From the NCBI GenBank assembly GCA_040903985.1, contig JBBDUI010000002.1:29361-93360 (forward strand): a DNA stretch of 64,000 nt, written 5' to 3'. The notes beneath the pieces were generated by a model. The model was not told the origin of the DNA. It did no database searches and was given only the letters and a program-made list of their open reading frames with translations. Both the position numbers and the translations under genes were made by a program. The DNA is from Candidatus Saccharimonadales bacterium. Its GTDB lineage: Bacteria; Patescibacteriota; Saccharimonadia; QS-5-54-17. Of the stretch, positions 13,005 through 54,532 are shown piece by piece (the first letter of the stretch is position 1; every line of letters starts with the position of its first letter).

Positions 13005-13051
13005 TGGGGAGTGGCCAAAAAGGTAGTGGCACCAGTTTTTGGTACTGGCAT
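13005..13051 (+). pseudogene. 5' half of a tRNA-Gln-like gene (acceptor 5' strand, D-arm, intact TTG anticodon arm) lacking a T-arm and 3' acceptor
   Basis: TGGGGAGTGGCCAAAAAGGTAGTGGCACCAGTTTTTGGTACTGGCAT matches the 5' 45 nt of the downstream tRNA-Gln except in the D-loop. No CTCCCCA 3' strand is found within the next 160 nt. Confidence 0.5.
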
Positions 13052-13214
13052 GAGGGGCGAGAGCTGCCAGTGGCAGTTCGAGAGCCGGAGCCACGACGGT
13101 GGCGAGGCGGGCCCGACTGAATTTCCAGCAGGAAATTACAGGTGGGTCGAATCCCTGCATAATTAACAATTCGAACCCCCCCCCGCTATCTCGGGGTATA
13201 ATAGAGGTACATAA

Positions 13215-13289
13215 TGGGGAGTGGCCAAGTGGTAAGGCACCAGTTTTTGGTACTGGCATTCGGGGGTTCGAATCCCTCCTCCCCAGCCA
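13215..13289 (+). tRNA. tRNA-Gln (anticodon TTG), encoded CCA
   Basis: Hand-folded cloverleaf: acceptor TGGGGAG/CTCCCCA, D-arm GCCA-AGTGGTAA-GGCA, anticodon stem CCAGT/ACTGG with loop TTTTGGT, T-arm GGGGG-TTCGAAT-CCCTC, discriminator G, CCA. Very close to E. coli tRNA-Gln. Confidence 0.9.
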
Positions 13290-13441: not shown

Positions 13442-13462
13442 CGAATCCCTCCTCCCCAGCCA
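13442..13462 (+). repeat. Exact 21-nt direct repeat of the tRNA-Gln 3' end (cgaatccctcctccccagcca = 13269-13289)
   Basis: Identical 21-mer found 173 nt downstream of the tRNA. Resembles an att-type duplication of a tRNA 3' end. Confidence 0.7.
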
Positions 13463-13928: not shown

Positions 13929-13957
13929 AAGTTGCGAAGTTCATCCACTAAGGGCAG
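13929..13957 (+). repeat. 29-nt exact direct repeat, copy 1 (AAGTTGCGAAGTTCATCCACTAAGGGCAG)
   Basis: Identical to 14280-14308. Lies about 40 nt upstream of the probable start of the next small gene. Confidence 0.85.
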
Positions 13958-13996
13958 CCATATTTGAGTTTAATTACATTCTGTTATTATATACAT

Positions 13997-14224
13997 ATGA
14001 GTGAAAATGAACCAGCGCGCCAAGAACCACCCCTTACTCGAGAACGTCTATTAGTTGATATGATAATGTTTGATGCTGACTGTGGTGATGGTGATTACAG
14101 GACTCGTATTCCAGCAGATGGTAGTAGCCATCCTCCAGAAGTGGTGTCTGGTGAAGTTATTTATGACTTACGACCAGAGAATGAAGGTCCAGTAGTCAAA
14201 TTCATAGAAGAGTCTACTAAATAA
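13997..14224 (+). CDS. Hypothetical small acidic protein. The ORF extends to 13964, but the ATG at 13997 is more plausible.
   Basis: ORF with no recognisable domain. Flanked by the two 29-nt repeats. Confidence 0.4.
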   Translation: MSENEPARQEPPLTRERLLVDMIMFDADCGDGDYRTRIPADGSSHPPEVVSGEVIYDLRPENEGPVVKFIEESTK

Positions 14225-14279: not shown

Positions 14280-14308
14280 AAGTTGCGAAGTTCATCCACT
14301 AAGGGCAG
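14280..14308 (+). repeat. 29-nt exact direct repeat, copy 2
   Basis: Identical to 13929-13957. Lies 43 nt upstream of the start of the YunG-like gene. Confidence 0.85.
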
Positions 14309-14350
14309 TCAAGCATAAGCACCACGATAGACTTATCCGGAAAACCCTTT

Positions 14351-16980: not shown

Positions 16981-17682
16981 TTGGGCTTAACAATAGTCGA
17001 CAAAAATAATTTTTATGTCTCCGGAACCTCTATCGCTGTCTCCTGGTCGGCTAATACTCAGGTTGGAGATATGATCTTGCTGATTGGGGTAATCAATAGT
17101 TCCGCTTCTTTTGATGTGAACGGATGGAATTTTACTTATGGCAGGGGAAGTTCAAGAACGGCAGTAATCTTAAGGAAGTTTGCTACTTCTTCTGGCACCA
17201 ATGATTACACCTGGTCAGGATGGAATTCTTCACAAGTAAGAGTAACTACAGTAACCTTGCGCAGTACAGATGAGTACAATATAACCCGAAACTACTCTGG
17301 TGAAGATATCAGCTCTGCAAACCTGGCGGGAGAGTGGGGGAATAGTGGAGTGGCATTTATTGCTGCAGCCGATACAACAGGCTTAACCCACACAACTCCT
17401 AGTCCTAGCTACTTTGGATTTGCCTCCCCTGAGATTACTGGATACTCAGGGCCGCATACCGACCCTACTGACGGATACAGTGTAAGTTTTAACAGTAGCA
17501 ACAATGCCATTGCGTCAATTGTCGTGCAATCTAGCAATAACACCACGCCGAGTCTTCCTGTACTCACTAACCCTGAGACCGCTCGCTATCAAGGTGCTTT
17601 TAATCTTGGCTGGACTTTTAATGATGCAGACGAGGATGATTCACAGTCTTCTTATTACCTAAGAATCAAGAGAAGACCGTAG
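16981..17682 (+). CDS. Modular repeat protein 1 (233 aa). The C-terminus carries the first half of the shared SDxDxDxQxxYxLRxxK module.
   Basis: TTG start with aggag RBS. C-terminal LGWTFNDADEDDSQSSYYLRIKRR matches the module FEWSYSDPESGAQSAWALKRQK in gene 2 and FSWSHSDPDGDAQASYALRRQK in gene 3. No signal peptide. The stop overlaps the next start (TAGTG). Confidence 0.55.
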   Translation: MGLTIVDKNNFYVSGTSIAVSWSANTQVGDMILLIGVINSSASFDVNGWNFTYGRGSSRTAVILRKFATSSGTNDYTWSGWNSSQVRVTTVTLRSTDEYNITRNYSGEDISSANLAGEWGNSGVAFIAAADTTGLTHTTPSPSYFGFASPEITGYSGPHTDPTDGYSVSFNSSNNAIASIVVQSSNNTTPSLPVLTNPETARYQGAFNLGWTFNDADEDDSQSSYYLRIKRRP

Positions 17683-20600
17683 TGGCTGAATATTATGTAG
17701 GGTCGTTTACCAAGCAGAATATGACTGGCAATCAGGCTTTTACCGGTATTGGATTTACTCCAAAAGCGATTATTTTCTGGAGCGCAGGTGAAGCACCAAC
17801 AGCAAATGGAACATGGGGCGATCATTTATACCATACAGTAGGATTTACCTCCGGCCCGACTGAGTCTTATTCAGTATCGGGTGCATCACAGGATGCAGTT
17901 GGTACTTCGAATTCTTCTAGATCAATAGCTGCAAAGTGCATACATCGGTCTAGTGTGAGTAGCGGGACTCGTGATGAAGCGGATCTGTCTTCTTTTGATG
18001 CTGATGGCTTCACGGTTAACTGGACTACCAGTTCTGGAGCTACTTCTCCAGAAATAATGTTCCTTGCTATTGGTGGGGATGATGTCTTGGCTAGAGCAGT
18101 AAACTGGACTTCACCGACATCTACGGGTAGTAAGCCGGTGACCGGGGTAGGATTCACTTCGGATCTCGTCCTACACACCCATTCGGGTTCAGCAGGCGCA
18201 CTACCCATCTCTTCACCATTAATGTACGGAAATATTGGTGCAATGGACTCATCAGGGAACGAATGGGTTAACAGTATCTATACCCAAGACGCCCAAACCA
18301 CTTCTAATACTGCGCGATACCAGCGCACAGATAAGTGTCTCGCATTTTCTGATAGTACGGGTGTCAATGAAGAAGCGAACTATGCCAGTATGGACGCCGA
18401 TGGCTTCACACTCAACTTTACATCTGCACTATCTTCCGCGTATCAGTGTATCTCCTTATGTCTGTCGGGTATCTCTGCTAGATCAGGTTCTTTTACACCT
18501 AATTCATCAACCTATTCGGTCTCAGGAGTAGGCTTCCGTCCTGAGGCTATGCTCTTTTCGATGACATATCAGCAGCCTAGCACGCCTCAGCCCAATGCGG
18601 CTTGGTCGCTTGGTGCAAGTGATGGTACTAATCATAGGGCCGTAGGTGTCGACGATGAAGATGCGCTTAGCACCACCTCGGCAGGCTCGATTTGGAGCAA
18701 CTCAGTGGTTGCTTACAATAGTGAAACTGCAAGTTATAGGTTTGATAGGAAGAATACTGTAGCACTTGACTCTTTTGACTCAGATGGCTTTACAACTAGT
18801 AAAGTTGGTGGAGCACAAAGTGAAACCTTATTTCTTGCTCTTGGCACACCAAACGATCCACCAAGCACAACGGCTTTGGCTCCGATAGACAGGACAGCAG
18901 TTAATCTAACCGAGGGTGTAGACTTTGAATGGAGCTACTCCGACCCAGAGAGTGGCGCACAAAGTGCATGGGCACTTAAGCGCCAGAAAGATAATGGGGA
19001 TGGCACCACCGATAGTGAAGAGTGGTGGCGGAATGAGGCATTAGATAATTGGAATAACCCGACACTAAACCCACCAGCTACTATGGGAGCATCTCCGGCT
19101 TCAACTGCTACAGCCTATTCGAATCAGCGTAAAATTGATCGAACTCAAAACGGTGTACTGTGGGCTATGTACTACAACTCAAGCAATGGTGCTATTTATG
19201 ATAAATACTCCACTGATAATGGTCAGACATGGACTACTGGTGTCCTACCATTTTTGTCGGGCGGAACCATAAGCTACACAGGTAACTTCTCGTTTTTTAT
19301 TGATATCGATGATTACTGCCATATTGTTTATAAAAATCCTTTCGACGGTTTTATCTACTACAAGAGAGGAATACCCGACGATGCTTCTCGCACTGCGTAC
19401 ACTTGGAGTAGTGCATTTGCAGTTCAGAACACTGATATATATTCAGACTACCCAGATATAATTGCTTTTCGCACCCCGGGATCAAGTCCTATAACTTGGG
19501 AAGTATGCATAGTAGCCTCTTGGACGAATGGTACGCTATTCGCTCAATACGAAAGACTGCATATAGCCAGTGACGGGTCTATAACTGGCGGCAATAATGA
19601 TGGTCTTTCACAAAACCAAGGTATGGCCATGCTGAGCAGCGCTACTTACAGCACTAGTACACATGCATACCCGTCTATAGATTTTAATCATACTGGTGAT
19701 GGTAAGACTGTAGCCGATAATACGCCACACTTGTACTCTACATGGTCGACCGGTGCTACAGGTTCAGGTAGAGGTATTAGGTTTAAGAAGGCGACTCATT
19801 CAGGTGGATCGTGGTTATGGGGCACAGAACGGGAGATCTCCTCAACTCACTATGTTGCTGCTCATAATTACTGTAACTGTATTTTTGATGGTACAAGAGT
19901 TATCATTGGGGGCAATCTTAACGATGGCGGATATTACAGTGTGGTTTTTTGGGAGCGGGACGCTGCAGATACTGTTACAACAGGCCCGATTTATGTGTTA
20001 GATAATGGAACTTCCGGGAATGACACATCAAGCTTTGCGGCACGAGGGTCAGTTACATATGATGCTGACGGTAACCTATACTTCATCGGTCTTGGGGCAG
20101 GCTCGCCCTGGAGGGTATGTCTCCAGAAGTGGGATCGGGCCACCGAGTCTGTAGAAGATCCTGTAGTTATTGATGAGTTAAATATAAACTCCTACGGTAG
20201 TGATGTCTCTCTCAAGCGCGGCTACTCTAACAACCGTATAGAATTTATCTATACTGACGGTACCAGTTCACCATACGACGTAACGTATGGCAGCATCGAG
20301 CAGCAGACTCTCCCCATTGGCTGGATAGATAGCGAAGTCTGGAACGATGGAGATGATACTTCAGTTAGTATCTCCAACTGGAGTAACGATGATGATACCT
20401 ATACTTGGAGTGTAGCCACCAAAGATGATGTTGGTAGTGCCAGTTCCTATACCACCGCCAGGACCCTTAACCCCTTCCAGTGGTGGGATGCTTCTACTTC
20501 TTCCTGGGTATATATCGAAACAGAAAACATATCCTCAGACACCGAGGTAGCTGTAGCTAACCTTTCTGCTGGTAGCTATAAGTGGAGTGTAGCTACAGAG

Positions 20601-20687
20601 GACAGTGCTGGTGCTAAAAGCAGCTATGCTACTGAACAGACGTTTGAGATTATTCGTTTTGAGCGTTGGGGTGTGGTGCAGATTTAA
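17682..20687 (+). CDS. Large modular repeat protein 2 (1001 aa): three N-terminal ~130-aa tandem repeats, a BNR/Asp-box region, and C-terminal fn3-like modules ending in FEIIRFERWGVVQI
   Basis: GTG start overlapping the upstream stop. Repeats carry FDADGFT/MDADGFT/FDSDGFT. A canonical Asp-box YSTDNGQTWT sits near aa 505. Repeated YTWSVATKDDVGSASSY / YKWSVATEDSAGAKSSY modules. No signal peptide. Thr/Ser/Gly-rich. Confidence 0.7.
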   Translation: MAEYYVGSFTKQNMTGNQAFTGIGFTPKAIIFWSAGEAPTANGTWGDHLYHTVGFTSGPTESYSVSGASQDAVGTSNSSRSIAAKCIHRSSVSSGTRDEADLSSFDADGFTVNWTTSSGATSPEIMFLAIGGDDVLARAVNWTSPTSTGSKPVTGVGFTSDLVLHTHSGSAGALPISSPLMYGNIGAMDSSGNEWVNSIYTQDAQTTSNTARYQRTDKCLAFSDSTGVNEEANYASMDADGFTLNFTSALSSAYQCISLCLSGISARSGSFTPNSSTYSVSGVGFRPEAMLFSMTYQQPSTPQPNAAWSLGASDGTNHRAVGVDDEDALSTTSAGSIWSNSVVAYNSETASYRFDRKNTVALDSFDSDGFTTSKVGGAQSETLFLALGTPNDPPSTTALAPIDRTAVNLTEGVDFEWSYSDPESGAQSAWALKRQKDNGDGTTDSEEWWRNEALDNWNNPTLNPPATMGASPASTATAYSNQRKIDRTQNGVLWAMYYNSSNGAIYDKYSTDNGQTWTTGVLPFLSGGTISYTGNFSFFIDIDDYCHIVYKNPFDGFIYYKRGIPDDASRTAYTWSSAFAVQNTDIYSDYPDIIAFRTPGSSPITWEVCIVASWTNGTLFAQYERLHIASDGSITGGNNDGLSQNQGMAMLSSATYSTSTHAYPSIDFNHTGDGKTVADNTPHLYSTWSTGATGSGRGIRFKKATHSGGSWLWGTEREISSTHYVAAHNYCNCIFDGTRVIIGGNLNDGGYYSVVFWERDAADTVTTGPIYVLDNGTSGNDTSSFAARGSVTYDADGNLYFIGLGAGSPWRVCLQKWDRATESVEDPVVIDELNINSYGSDVSLKRGYSNNRIEFIYTDGTSSPYDVTYGSIEQQTLPIGWIDSEVWNDGDDTSVSISNWSNDDDTYTWSVATKDDVGSASSYTTARTLNPFQWWDASTSSWVYIETENISSDTEVAVANLSAGSYKWSVATEDSAGAKSSYATEQTFEIIRFERWGVVQI

Positions 20688-21688
20688 TGGCAACAGTAAC
20701 ATACGCCTCTACCGGCACCTTTTCTGTACCTGCGAATGTTTATAGCGTCCACCTTGATTGTTATGGGCATCCAGGTGGAGCCTACAGCTATAATACTCGC
20801 GGAGGCCGTGCCTACGGGGACCTTGTTGTTACTCCAGGGGAGACCTTATATATTGGGGTAAATATAGGGGCTGGCACCACCACCTCCGGCGGTAGTGGTG
20901 CTGCTTATTCCTGGGGTGGTGGATATTCGGATGTTCGTAAGGGCGGAAACACGCTTAGCAATCAAAGAGTTGTTGCGGGTGGCGGCGGCGGCCAGTCTTA
21001 TACTTACACAGGGAAAGGTGGTAACGGTGGTGGTTCTTCCGGTGGAAGCGGTTCTACATCGCAGGGTGGTTCAGTTGGTGGTGGTGGAACCCAGTCTTCT
21101 GGAGGTTCTGCCTCGGGTAACGCTACCGTAGGAACCCGGGGACAGGGAGGTAACGGTGGCAGCAGTGGCGGGGCTGGCGGCGGCGGTTACTATGGTGGAG
21201 GAGGTGGCTATAATTATGCAGGTGGTGGAGGTGGCTCTGGGTATATAGGGGGAGTAACCGGCGGAAGTTATAGTACAGGGGGGAATCCAGACAACTCAGC
21301 TAAAGTAGTAATAACTTATACTCCTAACTCTATCCCTTCGACTCCAACTCCCTCAACGCCAACCAGCGGTTTGCGACAACAGGATGGCAGTATTAACTTC
21401 TCCTGGTCCCATTCCGATCCTGATGGAGATGCTCAGGCTTCCTACGCTCTGCGTAGGCAAAAGAGCGGTGGTGGTAACGAATGGTGGGATGGTACTTCCT
21501 GGGTGATAAGTGAAACGTTTGTGTCTACATCTACTCAATCAGTTTCTATTAATACTTCAACATTTGATCCTGGTGCCTACACCTGGAGCGTAGCTACCCG
21601 AGATAGCGTCGGTGCTACATCACCATATTCTTCTGCCAGAACAGTAGAGATTATTCGTTTTGAACGTTGGGGGGTGGTGCAGATATGA
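20687..21688 (+). CDS. Glycine-rich domain protein 3 (Gly_rich-like N-terminus) with the same C-terminal module and the identical tail EIIRFERWGVVQI
   Basis: ATG overlaps the upstream TAA (TAATG). N-terminus ATVTYASTGTFSVPANVYSVHLDCYGHPGG then GGxGG tracts (GGGGGQSY..GGNGGGSSGGSGS..GGGGYYGGGGGYNYAGGGGGSGY). C-terminal module NFSWSHSDPDGDAQASYALRRQK...YTWSVATRDSVGATSPY...EIIRFERWGVVQI. Confidence 0.7.
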   Translation: MATVTYASTGTFSVPANVYSVHLDCYGHPGGAYSYNTRGGRAYGDLVVTPGETLYIGVNIGAGTTTSGGSGAAYSWGGGYSDVRKGGNTLSNQRVVAGGGGGQSYTYTGKGGNGGGSSGGSGSTSQGGSVGGGGTQSSGGSASGNATVGTRGQGGNGGSSGGAGGGGYYGGGGGYNYAGGGGGSGYIGGVTGGSYSTGGNPDNSAKVVITYTPNSIPSTPTPSTPTSGLRQQDGSINFSWSHSDPDGDAQASYALRRQKSGGGNEWWDGTSWVISETFVSTSTQSVSINTSTFDPGAYTWSVATRDSVGATSPYSSARTVEIIRFERWGVVQI

Positions 21689-31836: not shown

Positions 31837-32514
31837 TTAAGAGTAAGCTAGCTGCTTAAGCCGTTTTACATCATTAACGGTGATGTATTGGGTGCTATCA
31901 GTAGTAATAATTTGCTCCTGTCGAAGCTTAGATATCTCACGTGAGACTGTTTCTCGAGCGACACTTAATACGTAAGCTAAATCCTGATGAGTCAACGGAG
32001 CTATGATTCGGATCCCAACATCAGAGAACTCACCAAAGGTAGTAGCATAGAAAAGAAGCTGATGTGCTAGGCGCTGATAGGATGAGCGAAGTGCCAGATT
32101 CTCTAAACGTTGAATATTAGAAGTCAGTCTCTCACCGGCCACCTTTAGCAAATCACGATAAATCAATGGATCATGTTCTAAATCGGATGACAGTGTGGCC
32201 GCCTCTAGACCATACAGCTCGACACTAGACATCGCCTCATAATAGAAAGTCTCGGGCCCTCTATACAGATCTTGATCAAAAATCTCCTTCATAACTACCG
32301 TTAAGGGGAATACTGAACCGGCCCCGTATACACTTTGAATACTTTGTAGACCATCAGCAGTGATGAGGTAACGTTTAACAAAACCTGATTTAACCATTAA
32401 TACCAGCTGAGTTTCGTCATCTGTAGTCTGGATGAGCTCACCTTTACTGTAGGTCCTTGTTTTGCCCTGGCGTAAGGCTATTTCGAGATCGGTAAGTTTC
32501 ATGTCATTACTCAT
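31837..32514 (-). CDS. Crp/Fnr-family transcriptional regulator (cNMP-binding domain plus C-terminal HTH)
   Basis: Beta-roll-like region (KSGFVKRYLITADGLQ..YGAGSVFPL) and a C-terminal HTH (ARETVSREISKLRQEQII). Confidence 0.75.
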   Translation of the reverse strand: MSNDMKLTDLEIALRQGKTRTYSKGELIQTTDDETQLVLMVKSGFVKRYLITADGLQSIQSVYGAGSVFPLTVVMKEIFDQDLYRGPETFYYEAMSSVELYGLEAATLSSDLEHDPLIYRDLLKVAGERLTSNIQRLENLALRSSYQRLAHQLLFYATTFGEFSDVGIRIIAPLTHQDLAYVLSVARETVSREISKLRQEQIITTDSTQYITVNDVKRLKQLAYS

Positions 32515-46479: not shown

Positions 46480-47175
46480 CTAGCTATCACGCAGTTCCGG
46501 CTTAGGATTAATGATACGGCGCAGCTGAGCTTGATCTTTTATGATGAGGTGTTTGTCTTTGGCGTTCACAATATCCTCTCTTCTGAGCCACTCCAACTCC
46601 CGGGATATCGTCTCCCGAGCCATACCTAAGCTATCGGCTAAGTCCTGATGGGTTAGGGGTAATTCGATGATTATCTGATCATAGAGCTCACTAGAGAACC
46701 GCTCAGCCAGGACTAGGAGATGATAGGCTAGCCTCTGCCGGGCGTGTTTAAGTGGCGAGGCTTCCACCCGACTCAGGTAAAGTTCGTAATTATTAATCAA
46801 ACTGACCACTAGCTCGCGATACCCTTCAGGGTGTCGCTCGAGATATTTCATCAGCTTATCTGCCGACTGAACATAGACCTCCACCGCCACGATTGCCTCG
46901 AAATATACCATCTCACGGAGATGGTAGGGCGAACGACCTAGATTAGCCCGTAGCGTTGGAGCTAACGGAAAGATCGAGCCTGGACCGTAGATACAAAGCA
47001 CATTATAGTTTCCCTCACTTGTTATAGCGTAAGACTTAACGTAGCCGCTCTCCAACATAAACACTGGGCTACCGTTTTTTTTAGAATCATAAATGATTTC
47101 TTCCTTATCAAACTGAGTACGTGTGCCGGTCTGAAAGAAAGAGGCTATGAGTTGAGGCTGAGACTGCTCGAGCAT
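46480..47175 (-). CDS. Crp/Fnr-family transcriptional regulator, paralog of 31837-32514
   Basis: MLESGYVKSYAITSEGNYNVLCIYGPGSIFPL parallels MVKSGFVKRYLITADGLQSIQSVYGAGSVFPL in the other copy. C-terminal HTH (ARETISRELEWLRREDIV). Confidence 0.75.
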   Translation of the reverse strand: MLEQSQPQLIASFFQTGTRTQFDKEEIIYDSKKNGSPVFMLESGYVKSYAITSEGNYNVLCIYGPGSIFPLAPTLRANLGRSPYHLREMVYFEAIVAVEVYVQSADKLMKYLERHPEGYRELVVSLINNYELYLSRVEASPLKHARQRLAYHLLVLAERFSSELYDQIIIELPLTHQDLADSLGMARETISRELEWLRREDIVNAKDKHLIIKDQAQLRRIINPKPELRDS

Positions 47176-51518: not shown

Positions 51519-52115
51519 TTGTACCATAGAGGTATGAGTTTGTATCAATCCTTAACTCAACTACCGACCGCCCAGGCGGCTCAACTCCTGCTAGGACAGA
51601 CGCTCGTACGTAGCCAGGGCACTACGGTGCTGGCCGCGCGAATCGTCGAGACTGAGGCCTATCATCAATCAGATCCGGCCGCCCACACTTTCCACGGTCC
51701 TAGTAAGCGCAACCAAACGATGTTCGGTCCGGCTGGACACGCCTACGGTATGCACCACTGTCTTAACGTCACTGCCGGCGAAGCAGGGGAGGGGGCTGGG
51801 GTGTTAATCCGAGCCATCGAACCGCTAGAGGGACTTGAAGCTATGGCTCGAAATCGTAAACTGCCCCGTGTAGTGCTAGATACTGCTGACGGCATCCGTC
51901 AGCTCGGCAGTGGGCCGGGTAAGCTAGCTCAAGCTCTCGGTATCACTCTCGAACTAAACGGCCACGACCTAACCCGACCGCCCCTGCAGCTCATTGAGAC
52001 GGGTACGGTAACCCCGACAAGCATCGTCACTACCACCCGCATCGGCATCACTAAAGCGGCCAGTGAACCACTACGATTCTATATTAAGGACAGTTCGTTT
52101 ATCTCGCGTCCTTAG
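51519..52115 (+). CDS. mpg: DNA-3-methyladenine glycosylase (Mpg/AAG family)
   Basis: GTTVLAARIVETEAYHQSDPAAHTFHGPSKRNQTMFGPAGHAYGMHHCLNV matches the conserved AAG/Mpg core. Confidence 0.85.
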   Translation: MYHRGMSLYQSLTQLPTAQAAQLLLGQTLVRSQGTTVLAARIVETEAYHQSDPAAHTFHGPSKRNQTMFGPAGHAYGMHHCLNVTAGEAGEGAGVLIRAIEPLEGLEAMARNRKLPRVVLDTADGIRQLGSGPGKLAQALGITLELNGHDLTRPPLQLIETGTVTPTSIVTTTRIGITKAASEPLRFYIKDSSFISRP

Positions 52116-54532
52116 TAACGGTCGGCTTGCTTCCGGCTGGAGTAAAAGTAGTAGGCGAAACTCATGATGAGTAGCAAGATTAACAGCCACCACCATAGGC
52201 TCATATCGCTGTCTGCTACCAGATCGACTTCAGCTTCTGTCTCGTTCTCATCCGTAGCCTGGAGTACTTCACCGTCGTCCTGACTCTGTGCAATTATATC
52301 GTTATCGTCCTGTGCACCTAATACTTCACCTTCAGAGTCAGCTGTAACACCAGTGTTGGTACTAGTTTGCTGAGCTGGCTCTTCTGTGTCGGTATCGTCA
52401 TCATCTTCCACTGCCGGATCTGCACTTAGGGCTGCGAAAGTGGTGAAATGCCATGTCAGGATCTCGGTATTGCCATCGACAATCTCATAACATTCACCAT
52501 ACGCCAAAGGATTAACACCATTACACTTAGAGATCATCTCCCATCCACCATCAACTGCGTAGCCCACATTGTTTGCTTCCACGCCTTCGAGAACGACAGT
52601 AACTATCTTGTCGAATATCAATGTTGCACTATCAGAGCCGACTTTTAAGGCCGTACCGTTAAACGTAAAGCCGCTCGGAGCAGCTACATTAGTATCTGCG
52701 CGAGGTGGAGATAGTTCTCCGTTCCAGCTAGATGGGGCCGATATAGTTGTATCATCTGGTATCGTTACGAGTACATTCGACACTGTAGATGCACTACTTC
52801 TAATCTCAATTGGCACAGAGCCTAAGGAGTTTAATTGTACCCGCCGCTCAACGACTATATCTACCCCGTTAACACTAAGTGTATCGGCAGGTCCATCCAC
52901 TACCTGGCTACTTAAATCGAGCGAGGTATTGTCACTAAATGCTATGTGGTTAATATCACTCGGTAAATCAGCATTACCTGGTGTAGTACCGCCAGGCGTA
53001 GGTGATCCTGATCCAACTACTATAGTATCGTTTGAGTCAGTTGTACTCTCGCTAGCCTCCTCGATCGTAGTGAAGATTGTGCAATATTTAACTGTAGCTG
53101 CAGTACATGTTCCGTTGCCACCCTGAATGTAGATTGCTTTATTGAAAGTATTGTCAGCTATAAGAGCCGATACATGGAAATCTGAACCATCTATAATTGG
53201 TTCATAGTCTGCGCTCGTGTAAGCTTTAGCGGCTATCCCGCCCGAAGCGATGTTAAATTCATTGTCAACGATGTTGTTGTCGACAACTACCCAAGAGGTA
53301 GAGCCGACACCAAGACCTTCATCTGTAGCAGTCACATCATTATCACTAACAGTATTACCACTGTTCTGTAGGCTTATACCATGTCTAGCATCTATATCAT
53401 TTCCTGAAATTAGAGCACTACCTACGGAATATTGAGTGGTGGTCTGAATACCCGTCAAAGTGTTAACGATGCGGTTAGACTCAACCGTTACTCCTATACC
53501 TGATACAGAGACACCTACATTAGAACCAACTGCAGTACTTTCGATTCTGAATCCCCGCAAAGTAGTACCATCGGCGCGTAGATCAACTAGACGCCCAGTA
53601 TTACCTATAATTGTCGGGCTTAAGCTGGTAACAGCCTCGATTGTTAGCCCTGAATTACCACCAAAAGAAGTGCCAACTGGAGCATAAGTACCGGCACCAA
53701 CTCTAACAGTTGAATCTGCAGGTGCTAAGTTAACTACATCTTGAAGAGTATCACCGTCATGAACTAAAAACGCACCATCTGCAGCGAACTTAAGTAAGGG
53801 ACTATTGCGATAGTCACCAATCGCCCACTGAGTGTCTTCTTCAAACTCGAAACTATTAGAGTTAAGTAAGCTCGTCAAGTCTCCGCCACTAAGTAATGTA
53901 ACGTCAACACCTAGACCAATACCTTCATTGTTATTAATAAAGGTATTGCTGGAAATTAGCAGTCCTTCAACTCCATCAGTACTACCTATACCTGCTTCAT
54001 TATCGATGAAGACGTTACCGACAATCGATACATTAGTAGGAGCTGTACCAGCAAACTGCAGAGAAACTCCAGTATTAAATCCGGCAATTGTGTTGTTACT
54101 AATAGTCAAACCGTCACTTCGCGCCGAGCCGATACCACGATCGATTACGTCTGAGCTGCCAACTATCTCAAAGCCGTCGATGGTTACATTATTTGCATCA
54201 AATACACGAATTTCCCCCTCGATAATAGCATCGCCTTCAGTTAACGATTCTAAAGTTAGGCCATTCTGGTTGATTAGAATATCCTCGTCATAGTTACCAG
54301 CTTCTACGCACACTGCTCTATCATCTGTGGTAACAGCGTCAATAGCAGCTTGGATAGTCTCGTAATCTTGTCCTCCACCAACTCTGATATCACAGTGATC
54401 GGTAGCCGATACAGACACTGGCACAAGAGCGAGAGTACTCGCAAACACTAGAGAAGCGACCGCTAGTGTGTGGATCGCCTTAGTTAAACTTTTAATCTTT
54501 CGCTCTACCCACCCTGGTATAGCGTTGCCCAT
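52112..54532 (-). CDS. Large secreted right-handed beta-helix repeat protein with N-terminal signal/TM and C-terminal TM anchor (surface protein, possible polysaccharide-modifying)
   Basis: Repeated parallel beta-helix-type motifs (ISNNTIAGFNTGVSLQ, GNVFIDNEAGIG, ISSNTFINNNEGIGL, ISGNDIDARHGISLQNSGNTVSDNDV). Acidic Asp/Glu-rich spacer. C-terminal hydrophobic anchor WWWLLILLLIMSFAYYFY followed by basic residues. Confidence 0.65.
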   Translation of the reverse strand: MGNAIPGWVERKIKSLTKAIHTLAVASLVFASTLALVPVSVSATDHCDIRVGGGQDYETIQAAIDAVTTDDRAVCVEAGNYDEDILINQNGLTLESLTEGDAIIEGEIRVFDANNVTIDGFEIVGSSDVIDRGIGSARSDGLTISNNTIAGFNTGVSLQFAGTAPTNVSIVGNVFIDNEAGIGSTDGVEGLLISSNTFINNNEGIGLGVDVTLLSGGDLTSLLNSNSFEFEEDTQWAIGDYRNSPLLKFAADGAFLVHDGDTLQDVVNLAPADSTVRVGAGTYAPVGTSFGGNSGLTIEAVTSLSPTIIGNTGRLVDLRADGTTLRGFRIESTAVGSNVGVSVSGIGVTVESNRIVNTLTGIQTTTQYSVGSALISGNDIDARHGISLQNSGNTVSDNDVTATDEGLGVGSTSWVVVDNNIVDNEFNIASGGIAAKAYTSADYEPIIDGSDFHVSALIADNTFNKAIYIQGGNGTCTAATVKYCTIFTTIEEASESTTDSNDTIVVGSGSPTPGGTTPGNADLPSDINHIAFSDNTSLDLSSQVVDGPADTLSVNGVDIVVERRVQLNSLGSVPIEIRSSASTVSNVLVTIPDDTTISAPSSWNGELSPPRADTNVAAPSGFTFNGTALKVGSDSATLIFDKIVTVVLEGVEANNVGYAVDGGWEMISKCNGVNPLAYGECYEIVDGNTEILTWHFTTFAALSADPAVEDDDDTDTEEPAQQTSTNTGVTADSEGEVLGAQDDNDIIAQSQDDGEVLQATDENETEAEVDLVADSDMSLWWWLLILLLIMSFAYYFYSSRKQADRY

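What the first reader, a model, noticed from the sequence alone, without database searches (positions are those of the whole stretch)
16981..21688. Translationally coupled three-gene cassette of modular repeat proteins (candidate phage-remnant tail fiber or novel surface-adhesion system)
Three co-oriented genes are joined by stop/start overlaps (TAGTG at 17680-17684; TAATG at 20685-20689). All three share a module [F/L]xWSxSDPxxxxQxxYAL[K/R]RQK...EWW. Genes 2 and 3 also share repeated fn3-like YxWSVATxDxxGAxSxY modules and end in the identical tail EIIRFERWGVVQI. None has a signal peptide. Gene 2 has three N-terminal ~130-aa tandem repeats (FDADGFT / MDADGFT / FDSDGFT) and a canonical BNR Asp-box (YSTDNGQTWT), suggesting a beta-propeller sialidase-like carbohydrate-binding domain. 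Gene 3 has a Gly_rich-type domain. The cassette sits in an AT-richer region next to a tRNA integration hotspot. This architecture fits phage receptor-binding or tail-fiber proteins, or a dedicated host-attachment apparatus. I do not recognise it as a described system.
Basis: partly seen in the sequence, partly recalled or inferred. Interest (0 to 1): 0.8.

Follow-up and report, generated by a model that had tools for sequence, protein, structure and literature searches.

The report
Orphan phage tail-fibre cassette, split domain
Three tightly linked genes in an ultra-small Saccharimonadales bacterium are phage-type receptor-binding (tail-fibre) proteins stranded without the rest of a phage, and the first two appear to be held together by one small fibronectin-type domain that is split between them, an arrangement that recurs in at least ten uncultivated phages.

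Summary
There are three co-oriented ORFs (233, 1001 and 333/340 aa) with TAGTG and TAATG stop/start overlaps, shared fn3-like modules, an identical 13-aa C-terminal tail, a triple ~130-aa repeat, one Asp-box and a glycine-rich domain.

The window is a Candidatus Saccharimonadales MAG chromosome (GCA_040876815.1). Relatives of genes 2 and 3 sit in the tail/baseplate modules of uncultivated phages, several of them actinophage-like. No other phage gene lies anywhere in the 64-kb window. The cassette's GC3 (0.38-0.41) is well below that of housekeeping genes (0.53-0.60). I therefore read it as an orphan, horizontally acquired tail-fibre/receptor-binding module.

New point: gene 1 ends exactly after strand C of an fn3 domain. 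Gene 2 carries, near its C-terminus, an extra fn3 half that starts exactly at strand C'. The same pairing occurs in 10 independent phage loci: an orphan N-half on the upstream protein, an orphan C-half on the next, and a stop/start overlap between them. Two of those loci were predicted in advance.

My best reading is a split fn3 "plug-and-socket" joining fibre subunits. This is inferred, not shown.

Unresolved: whether the cassette is a remnant, serves a particle encoded elsewhere, or was co-opted for host attachment.

The parts
16981..17682 (+). g1 (233 aa). It has an N-terminal domain (aa 1-189) of a rare family and ends in an orphan fn3 N-half.
   Evidence: ORF. AGGAG lies 5 nt before the TTG start. 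The N-domain has only one relative in 1.84 billion representatives (P0243, 37% identity over aa 9-115). Weak collinear similarity to the N-terminus of phage protein P0003 (E 0.04) and to the L009 263-aa protein (hhalign E 0.008).
17548..17679 (+). Orphan fn3 N-half of g1 (strands A, A', B, C): PSLPVLTNPETARYQGAFNLGWTFNDADEDDSQSSYYLRIKRRP. The protein ends right after strand C.
   Evidence: fn3 HMM positions 1-43, domain E 2e-4. blastp to the g3 fn3, E 1.4e-7. Strand mapping taken from the g3 model.
17680..17684 (+). TAGTG stop/start overlap between g1 and g2. This is the split point inside the C-C' loop of the fn3 domain.
   Evidence: The same kind of junction occurs in 10 phage loci.
17682..20687 (+). 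g2 (1001 aa), a multi-domain receptor-binding fibre subunit.
17682..18857 (+). Three tandem ~130-aa all-beta repeats (aa 1-392).
   Evidence: Pairwise E 5e-16, 9e-15 and 2e-5. AF2 pLDDT is mostly above 90. No Pfam family. A DUF7483 phage protein and phage minor tail proteins are among the Foldseek hits.
18867..19040 (+). N-part (strands A to C') of the first fn3 of g2, into which the propeller is inserted.
   Evidence: fn3 HMM positions 4-57, E 2e-9.
19074..20306 (+). Sialidase-like beta-propeller (aa ~465-875) with one Asp-box at 19209-19232.
   Evidence: AF2 pLDDT about 85-90. Foldseek PDB hits to sialidases and PL24/PL25 lyases, E 3e-8 to 1e-6 at about 10% identity. 108 invariant columns shared with 7 relatives.
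20319..20471 (+). C-part (strands E to G) of the first fn3 of g2, after the propeller.
   Evidence: fn3 HMM positions 57-107, E 3e-10.
20478..20648 (+). Orphan fn3 C-half of g2 (strands C' to G). It starts at 'FQWWD' right after a conserved 'NP'.
   Evidence: fn3 HMM positions 51-107, E 4e-7. g1 C-terminus plus this segment gives an end-to-end fn3 hit, positions 1-107, E 1e-17.
20646..20684 (+). C-terminal tail EIIRFERWGVVQI of g2.
   Evidence: Identical to the g3 tail, with only synonymous DNA differences. [F]ERWG[AV]V[FQ]I also ends phage proteins P0003, P0021 and the L009 604-aa protein.
20685..20689 (+). TAATG stop/start overlap between g2 and g3.
20687..21688 (+). g3 (333 aa from the ATG). 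It has an ALK/LTK-type glycine-rich (TG/GRD) domain at aa 1-215, an intact fn3 at aa 217-321 and the same tail at 21647-21685.
   Evidence: PF12810 at 28.1 bits against a 24.5 cut-off. AF2 pLDDT 93.5, with the tail falling to 56. Foldseek hits to ALK/LTK GRD at E 1e-5 and to fn3 domains. fn3 HMM positions 1-107, E 1e-48.

Best explanation
The cassette is a horizontally acquired, phage-type tail-fibre / receptor-binding module. It now stands alone in a Saccharimonadales chromosome.

(1) Shown: identity. g2 combines a triple beta-repeat, a sialidase-like propeller inserted into an fn3 domain, an extra fn3 half and a short tail. g3 combines an ALK-type glycine-rich domain, an fn3 domain and the same tail. 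Their relatives are encoded at the distal end of tail/baseplate modules of uncultivated phages.

(2) Shown as a sequence pattern, inferred as a mechanism: g1 and g2 are two pieces of one assembly.
- g1 ends exactly after strand C of an fn3 domain.
- g2 carries the missing strands C'-G just before its tail.
- I propose that the two halves fold together in trans. This would be a split-domain plug-and-socket, akin in principle to donor-strand complementation, tying g1's N-domain to the g2 receptor-binding domains.
- Tight translational coupling (TAGTG) would deliver both chains together.

(3) Inferred: the identical, unstructured tail RFERWGVVQI on g2 and g3 docks both into the same acceptor site.

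(4) Inferred: the propeller and the glycine-rich domain bind (and the propeller possibly cleaves) cell-surface glycans.

(5) Inferred: because no baseplate, tube, capsid or integrase gene lies in the 64 kb, the module is most likely a leftover of a phage or island integrated near tRNA-Gln, not yet ameliorated or decayed.
For: Phage context of relatives:
- P0003 lies between Baseplate_J-type genes and Tail_P2_I.
- P0015 lies after TMP, LysM, M23, Baseplate_J, Tail_P2_I and PTL_trimer, and before an amidase.
- P0013 lies next to portal and protease genes.
- P0126 lies near a portal gene.
- P0021 lies before endolysin genes.
- The L009 pair lies after phrog_5287 (minor tail protein) and phrog_1887 (tail protein), E 1e-93 and 1e-102. 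That tail protein is 41.5% identical to Gordonia, Rhodococcus and Streptomyces phage minor tail proteins.
- L025 carries WhiB and RusA.

Folds.

Fused relatives: the glycine-rich domain is inserted inside g2-like proteins P0015 and P0029.

Split fn3:
- In the g3 model, strand C is aa 250-259 and C' is aa 264-267.
- g1 stops after C and the g2 orphan half starts at C'.
- HMM mapping shows an N-half (positions 1-44/45) at the extreme C-terminus of the upstream ORF and a surplus C-half (positions ~50-107) in the next ORF. This holds in L001, L004, L009, L012, L014, L016-20, L021 and L023.
- Two prospective tests, L025 and L026, also showed it.
- All junctions overlap or lie within 2 nt.
- The partners on either side vary: g1-like domain, sialidase-like propeller, WD40-like propeller or glycine-rich domain. 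So the junction itself is what is conserved.

Tail under purifying selection.

Orphan status and foreign composition.

Not an assembly artefact: the same neighbourhood occurs in 3 assemblies.
Against:
- The fn3 parts of the g2 model have pLDDT below 50, so trans-folding is untested.
- g1's half-domain matches the fn3 HMM only weakly (E 2e-4).
- The similarity of g1's N-domain to the phage g1-like domains is marginal.
- Neither g2, g3 nor their closest phage relatives match any of 50,697 GenBank phage records. The phage assignment therefore rests on metagenomic contigs.
- Three intact ORFs spanning 4.7 kb are unusual for a decaying remnant.
- Only 64 kb of a genome of at least 739 kb was examined.
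Confidence: 0.65

Rival explanations
1. The cassette is functional but works in trans. It would supply the fibres for a phage-like particle (prophage, tailocin, contractile injection system or gene-transfer-agent-like element) whose body is encoded elsewhere in the genome.
For: All three ORFs are intact. g2 keeps every invariant residue of the propeller family. The tail is under purifying selection. From general knowledge, RcGTA encodes its fibre and head-spike genes away from the main structural cluster.
Against: In every phage locus recovered, the fibre genes sit directly beside baseplate or tail genes. Nothing phage-like lies within -17/+42 kb.
Confidence: 0.15
2. The cassette is a domesticated adhesin. 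The episymbiont would have co-opted an actinophage-type receptor-binding fibre to recognise the envelope of its actinobacterial host, as Bdellovibrio uses phage-like MAT fibres.
For: The g1-like to g2-like gene pair closest in architecture is in an actinophage-like contig. Saccharibacteria parasitise Actinobacteria, including Gordonia (PMC11880426, abstract). There is a precedent for cellular phage-like fibres on a predator's surface (PMC10769870, abstract). A second Saccharimonadales MAG has a 55%-identical propeller gene next to host genes.
Against: There is no signal peptide, TM segment, sortase motif or adjacent secretion gene. GC3 is foreign, so the acquisition looks recent rather than an old domestication. 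In the second MAG, the gene upstream of the propeller carries a classic tail-fibre motif and the locus lies at a contig edge, which suggests a phage. Lower-GC phage contigs with the same proteins exist, so the donor may be a phage of Saccharimonadales itself.
Confidence: 0.1
3. The split fn3 is only an evolutionary scar or recombination junction. Fibre gene cassettes would be swapped by recombination within conserved fn3 coding sequence. The orphan halves would not fold together, and g1 would be a non-functional fragment here.
For: Very different modules flank the same junction in different phages, which is what a module-shuffling hotspot would produce. g1's half is the most degenerate of those found.
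Against: The same stop/start position in the C-C' loop is kept across loci that share only about 25-45% identity. The core residues of both halves (W of strand B, Y-x-L of C, WW of C', Y-x-W-x-V-A-T-x-D of F) are conserved in the orphans. A three-stranded or four-stranded half cannot fold alone. N-halves and C-halves balance in every locus, including two predicted in advance.
Confidence: 0.15
4. The cassette is a cellular glycan-degrading operon, with a sialidase-like enzyme and accessory proteins serving the bacterium's own metabolism.
For: The propeller fold resembles GH33 sialidases and PL24/25 lyases. Glycoside hydrolase genes occur elsewhere in the window.
Against: There is no FRIP motif and only one Asp-box. 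There is no sequence match to solved sialidases (best E 0.29). No export signal is present. The architecture and the relatives are those of phage fibres.
Confidence: 0.03

Closest known systems
Phage tail fibres / receptor-binding proteins with enzymatic or lectin beta-propellers (e.g. coliphage K1F endosialidase; actinophage 'minor tail proteins')
   Same: Encoded at the distal end of the tail/baseplate module in the relatives. Modular build from Ig/fn3 spacers plus glycan-binding heads. No signal peptide. The propeller has a sialidase-like fold.
   Different: No sequence match to any cultured phage. The propeller is inserted inside an fn3 domain. No FRIP motif or Arg-triad signature was seen. 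Here the module has no phage around it.
Donor-strand complementation in chaperone-usher and type V pili
   Same: An incomplete Ig-like fold in one subunit is completed by strands from another subunit, giving a very stable non-covalent joint. This is a functional analogy.
   Different: In pili a single strand is donated. Here three to four strands (A-C) would come from one protein and four (C'-G) from the other, and the two are adjacent phage genes. Not demonstrated. There is no homology to pilins.
ALK/LTK glycine-rich (TG/GRD) domain, Pfam PF12810
   Same: g3 aa 1-215 passes the Pfam threshold, and its model matches ALK/LTK GRD structures.
   Different: g3 is a bacterial/phage protein with no receptor kinase and no EGF module. 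Its ligand is unknown. In phages the domain is a fibre head.
Bdellovibrio MAT (mosaic adhesive trimer) fibres (PMC10769870)
   Same: Phage-fibre-like, mosaic, glycan-binding proteins encoded in a cellular genome of a bacterium that lives on other bacteria.
   Different: MAT proteins are shown to be surface-displayed, and the family is expanded in Bdellovibrio. Here there is a single cassette of foreign composition, no export signal and no localisation data. No homology was tested.

Membership tests
Phage tail-fibre / receptor-binding module | Homologues encoded within the tail/baseplate gene modules of phages | tested here: met
Phage tail-fibre / receptor-binding module | Structural similarity to known phage tail proteins | tested here: met
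   Foldseek against BFVD: Bacillus phage G gp424/gp427 and a Mycobacterium phage PP minor tail protein, E 1e-10. TM-scores are modest (0.3-0.5) because the query has several domains.
Phage tail-fibre / receptor-binding module | Physical part of a virion, attached to a baseplate | not testable with these tools
   Needs virion proteomics or cryo-EM.
Prophage (intact or recognisable) | Adjacent integrase, terminase, portal, capsid, tail tube or baseplate genes, and att repeats bracketing the element | tested here: not met
   No such Pfam or PHROG hits occur anywhere in the 64 kb. No window ORF outside the cassette matches the phage loci. The only tRNA-derived repeat is 173 nt from the tRNA.
GH33 sialidase / BNR family | Six-bladed propeller fold | tested here: inconclusive
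   A propeller fold is confirmed, and the best PDB hits include sialidases (six-bladed) and PL24/25 lyases (seven-bladed). The blade number was not resolved.
GH33 sialidase / BNR family | Several Asp-boxes, a FRIP motif and a sequence match to the family | tested here: not met
   One Asp-box and no [FYW]R[IVL]P motif. Pfam BNR scores 16.2 bits against a 27 cut-off. The profile search against PDB sequences gives a best E of 0.29.
ALK_LTK_GRD (PF12810) | Score above the Pfam gathering threshold, and a TG/GRD fold | tested here: met
   28.1 bits against a 24.5 cut-off. Foldseek hits to ALK/LTK GRD at E 1e-5 to 6e-4.
fn3 / Ig_Rha78A_N (PF25788) | Seven-stranded fn3-type sandwich | tested here: met
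   The g3 model has pLDDT above 90 with strands A, A', B, C, C', E, F, G. fn3 domains are hit with TM 0.55-0.67. The Pfam score itself is just below threshold, 24.3 against 27.4.
DUF7483 (candidate family for the triple repeat) | Pfam match | tested here: not met
   No Pfam hit at E <= 1. Only one DUF7483-named protein appears among the Foldseek hits.
Split-domain (fragment-complementation) connector | The two halves map to complementary, non-overlapping parts of one domain, on adjacent genes, and this recurs | tested here: met
Split-domain (fragment-complementation) connector | The halves physically fold together | not testable with these tools

The most novel reading that the evidence does not exclude
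An episymbiotic Saccharimonadales bacterium, whose kind lives on Actinobacteria, has captured an actinophage-type receptor-binding fibre. The fibre would be assembled through a split fn3 domain and used, by the cell itself or by a particle it makes, to recognise the envelope of its bacterial host. That would make phage receptor-binding proteins a source of host-range determinants for ultra-small symbionts.
Probability: 0.1. Interest if true: 0.85.

Novelty: new variant of a known kind. Interest (0 to 1): 0.6.

Why it matters
- The split fn3 joint, if the halves do fold together, would be a simple and portable rule for how modular phage fibres are bolted together and exchanged. Diverse receptor-binding heads share one connector. 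That is useful both for reading host range from metagenomes and for engineering fibres.
- The whole fibre family (triple repeat, fn3-embedded propeller, glycine-rich heads, ERWG tail) is absent from cultured phages, so it marks unexplored phage diversity, partly actinophage-like.
- Very little is known about phages of Saccharibacteria or about how these symbionts recognise hosts. An intact orphan receptor-binding module gives a concrete, testable set of proteins.

Tried and rejected
- AF2 of a g1-linker-g2 C-terminus chimera, to test trans-folding.
- The search for related loci with the single protein P0003, and with the wide alignment A1. Neither found anything usable. Narrower alignments A2 and A3 worked.
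- tblastn of g2, g3, the L009 604-aa protein and P0190 against 50,697 GenBank phages. No match.
- NCBIfam on the cassette and its unknown neighbours, and PHROGs on the neighbours. No hits.
- Cluster look-up for organism names of NCBI-sourced homologues. None carried a name.
- Programmed frameshift or readthrough at the g1/g2 junction. I considered and rejected this. The stop codons differ (TAG, TGA, TAA), there is no slippery site, the next ORF has its own start and, in L001 and L004, a GGAGG inside the 'RRP' codons. A fusion would also not place the two fn3 halves next to each other in sequence.
- Stop-codon recoding. Rejected for the same reason.
- A distal att repeat bracketing the cassette. 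None was found.
- Promoter and terminator scans. No better than shuffled sequence.
- Literature searches for a split Ig/fn3 domain in tail fibres and for DUF7483. Nothing was found in the held library. That is weak evidence of novelty only.

Full report
WHAT IS THERE

The region holds three co-oriented ORFs:
- g1: 16981-17682 (TTG start, 233 aa)
- g2: 17682-20687 (GTG start, 1001 aa)
- g3: 20687-21688 (ATG start, 333 aa; an upstream TTG at 20666 would give 340 aa)

The window is part of contig JBBDOY010000002.1 (739 kb) of a Candidatus Saccharimonadales MAG, GCA_040876815.1. The cassette occurs with the same neighbours in three assemblies, so it is not a chimera.

NCBI called shorter versions of g1 (203 aa) and g2 (988 aa). 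Homologue N-termini ('MALQTKVGSF...', 'MALTITTGG...') align with the residues upstream of those starts. The longer, overlapping ORFs are therefore the better models.

DOMAINS

g2 begins with three ~130-aa all-beta repeats. Pairwise E-values are 5e-16, 9e-15 and 2e-5. AF2 models them at pLDDT above 90. No Pfam family covers them.

Next in g2 comes an fn3 module interrupted between strands C' and E by a ~410-aa beta-propeller:
- Its pLDDT is about 85-90.
- Its best PDB matches are sialidases and PL24/25 lyases at about 10% identity.
- It has one Asp-box and no FRIP motif.
- It has no sequence match to solved sialidases.

I therefore call it sialidase-like in fold only.

g3 is an ALK/LTK-type glycine-rich domain followed by an intact fn3:
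- PF12810 scores above threshold.
- The AF2 model has mean pLDDT 93.5.
- Foldseek matches ALK/LTK GRD structures and fn3 domains.

g2 and g3 end in the identical 13 residues EIIRFERWGVVQI. The DNA differs at 3 of 39 positions, all synonymous. The preceding 47 residues are only 30% identical. The tail is therefore under purifying selection. In the g3 model it is unstructured, with pLDDT falling to 56.

None of the three proteins has a signal peptide or a TM segment.

WHERE THE RELATIVES LIVE

g2 has 335 word-sharing relatives. The propeller alone is widespread and is fused to C25 peptidases, subtilisins and other domains. Proteins sharing the fibre architecture are encoded in phage contigs:
- P0003 lies between gp25/Baseplate_J-type genes and Tail_P2_I.
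- P0015 lies after TMP, LysM, M23, Baseplate_J, Tail_P2_I and PTL_trimer, and before an amidase.
- P0013 lies beside portal and prohead protease genes.
- P0126 lies near a portal gene.
- P0021 lies before endolysin genes.
- P0123 lies among giant Laminin_G_3 proteins.
- Five IMG/VR contigs also carry the propeller.

In IMG/VR contig L009, a g1-like 263-aa gene and a g2-like 604-aa gene follow genes matching phrog_5287 (minor tail protein) and phrog_1887 (tail protein) at E 1e-93 and 1e-102. The latter protein is 41.5% identical to minor tail proteins of Gordonia, Rhodococcus, Tsukamurella and Streptomyces phages. L025 carries WhiB and RusA. Several carriers are therefore actinophage-like. Others have lower GC (0.49-0.53).

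In P0015 and P0029 the glycine-rich domain is inserted into a g2-like protein, which links the g2 and g3 types functionally.

The g2 model also matches Bacillus phage G gp424/gp427 and a Mycobacterium phage minor tail protein.

None of these fibre proteins matches any of 50,697 GenBank phage records.

THE CASSETTE IS AN ORPHAN

Pfam and PHROG scans of essentially all sizeable ORFs in the 64 kb found housekeeping and accessory genes. They found no integrase, terminase, portal, capsid, tube or baseplate gene. The genes found include:
- dnaX, dnaB, recR, cysS, BipA, a PBP and a DEAD helicase
- glycosyltransferases
- AI-2E transporters
- YunG, NUDIX, DUF2200 and PAP2 proteins

No window ORF outside the cassette matches any of the phage loci.

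GC3 of g1-g3 is 0.38-0.41, against 0.53-0.60 for housekeeping genes. Some neighbours are similarly low: YunG, NUDIX and the unknown ORFs at 21.8, 23.7 and 25.4 kb.

tRNA-Gln lies 3.7 kb upstream, and its last 21 nt are repeated 173 nt downstream. This is a local scar of integration, but no distal repeat brackets the cassette.

The simplest reading is a horizontally acquired island of which only the fibre module is recognisably of phage origin.

THE SPLIT fn3 DOMAIN (main new result)

In the confident g3 model the fn3 strands are as follows:

| Strand | Residues |
|---|---|
| A | 221-224 |
| A' | 229-231 |
| B | 235-241 |
| C | 250-259 |
| C' | 264-267 |
| E | 285-289 |
| F | 296-306 |
| G | 318-322 |

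Aligned to this:
- g1 ends two to three residues after strand C ('...QSSYYLRIKRRP*').
- g2 contains one N-part (A-C') but two C-parts.
- The surplus C-part begins exactly at C' ('NP|FQWWD...') and runs to G, followed by the tail.

Across the cassette the halves balance: three N-halves and three C-halves.

g1 aa 187-233 joined to g2 aa 932-991 aligns end to end with an fn3 HMM, positions 1-107, E 1e-17.

The HMM (108 positions, built from four intact modules) was run on all ORFs of the fetched loci. The same pattern appeared in L001, L004, L009, L012/13, L014, L016-20, L021 and L023:
- An N-half (positions 1-44/45) sits at the extreme C-terminus of one ORF.
- The next ORF starts within 2 nt or overlaps the stop.
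- That next ORF carries a surplus C-half (positions ~50-107) after a conserved 'NP[WFY][EQ][WFM]W[DN]'.

I then made a forward prediction from protein sequences alone. P0190 and P0162 each have a full fn3 plus a surplus C-half, so each should be preceded by a gene ending in an orphan N-half. Both predictions held.

The modules on either side of the joint differ between loci: g1-like domain, sialidase-like propeller, WD40-like propeller or glycine-rich domain upstream, and various heads downstream. What is conserved is the joint itself.

In L001 and L004 the 'RRP' codons contain GGAGG, placed as the ribosome-binding site of the next gene. That explains part of the sequence conservation at the junction.

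Frameshifting or readthrough is unlikely:
- The stop codons differ between loci.
- No slippery site is present.
- The downstream ORFs have their own starts.

HOW IT MOST LIKELY WORKS

A three- or four-stranded half of a beta-sandwich cannot fold alone, yet both orphan halves keep the core residues of the domain. I therefore infer that they fold together in trans, and that this fixes g1 to the C-terminal end of g2.

Topologically, g2 behaves as a giant insertion into the C-C' loop of a 'g1 N-domain - fn3 - tail' protein. That protein would have the same layout as g3 ('glycine-rich head - fn3 - tail').

The shared tail would dock both units to a common acceptor. The propeller, the triple repeat and the glycine-rich head would contact surface glycans.

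All of this beyond the sequence pattern is inference.

WHAT THE CASSETTE DOES IN THIS BACTERIUM

This is open.

For a remnant:
- No phage body is nearby.
- The composition is foreign.
- There are no export signals.

For retained function:
- Three intact ORFs are present.
- All family-invariant propeller residues are kept.
- The tail is constrained.

A second Saccharimonadales MAG (L010) has a 55%-identical propeller-only gene. It is preceded by a gene fragment with the classic fibre motif 'VADPVNDSDVANKGYVD', lies at a contig edge and sits next to host genes. This suggests that phages of Saccharimonadales carry such proteins.

The most exciting reading is co-option of an actinophage-type receptor-binding fibre for recognising the actinobacterial host. 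Saccharibacteria parasitise Actinobacteria, including Gordonia (PMC11880426). Bdellovibrio displays phage-like MAT fibres (PMC10769870). This reading is not excluded, but it has no direct support.

VERDICT

The tail-fibre interpretation is supported, and the 'novel cellular adhesion system' interpretation is not.

The cassette is a new variant of a known kind: a phage receptor-binding module. It has two features worth follow-up:
- a recurrent split-fn3 connector, not described in the literature I could search
- orphan residence in an episymbiont genome

Noticed in passing
window 13006-13170, 13215-13289, 13442-13462: The last 21 nt of tRNA-Gln (CGAATCCCTCCTCCCCAGCCA) are repeated exactly 173 nt downstream. 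About 210 nt upstream there is a 30-nt copy (93%) of the tRNA's anticodon-arm region, inside a tRNA-like stretch that neither ARAGORN nor Rfam calls. These look like scars of repeated integration and excision at this tRNA.
   Followed up: partly
window 13929-13960 and 14280-14311: A 32-nt direct repeat (97% identical) brackets the small ORF 13964-14224. Its meaning is unknown.
   Followed up: no
window 16981 and 17682 (gene starts): The NCBI annotation starts g1 at Met31 and g2 at Met14. Homologue alignments support the upstream TTG and GTG starts, which create the TAGTG overlap.
   Followed up: yes
L012 10882-13671 and 13672-19173: A second kind of split. A 929-aa fibre protein ends in fn3 strand F ('...YSWTVATGD*'), and the next gene (1833 aa) begins 'MRGPYAAEQVF...', which looks like strand G. 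One fn3 domain may therefore be shared among three polypeptides there.
   Followed up: partly
L025, L026, L016-L023 (C-termini of the downstream fibre proteins): These proteins lack the ERWG tail. They end instead in two or three repeats of a 'R[IV]W[DN]G[ST]xW[LV]' hairpin that resembles fn3 strand C' (weak HMM hits to positions 51-84). The ERWG tail may be a shortened version of the same element.
   Followed up: no
L010 1-1768 (Candidatus Saccharimonadales MAG JBBDOS010000010.1): This is a propeller-only 425-aa protein, 55% identical to the g2 propeller. It is preceded by a gene fragment with a tail-fibre motif and followed by ComF-like, Hsp20 and a row of VirB2/TrbC-like small membrane protein genes. 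The locus is at a contig edge.
   Followed up: partly
P0015, P0029 (relatives of g2): In these proteins the glycine-rich ALK-type domain is inserted inside the propeller-bearing protein. Nested domain insertion thus seems to be the family's usual way of building new fibres.
   Followed up: partly
window 52112-54532 (- strand): An 805-aa protein with a NosD/beta-helix domain lies in a second low-GC patch (GC 0.43-0.44 at 53-55 kb), next to glycosyltransferase genes. It may be another acquired surface or glycan-active protein.
   Followed up: no
window 31837-32514 and 46480-47175 (- strand): There are two Crp/Fnr-type regulators with the same domain layout 14 kb apart.
   Followed up: no
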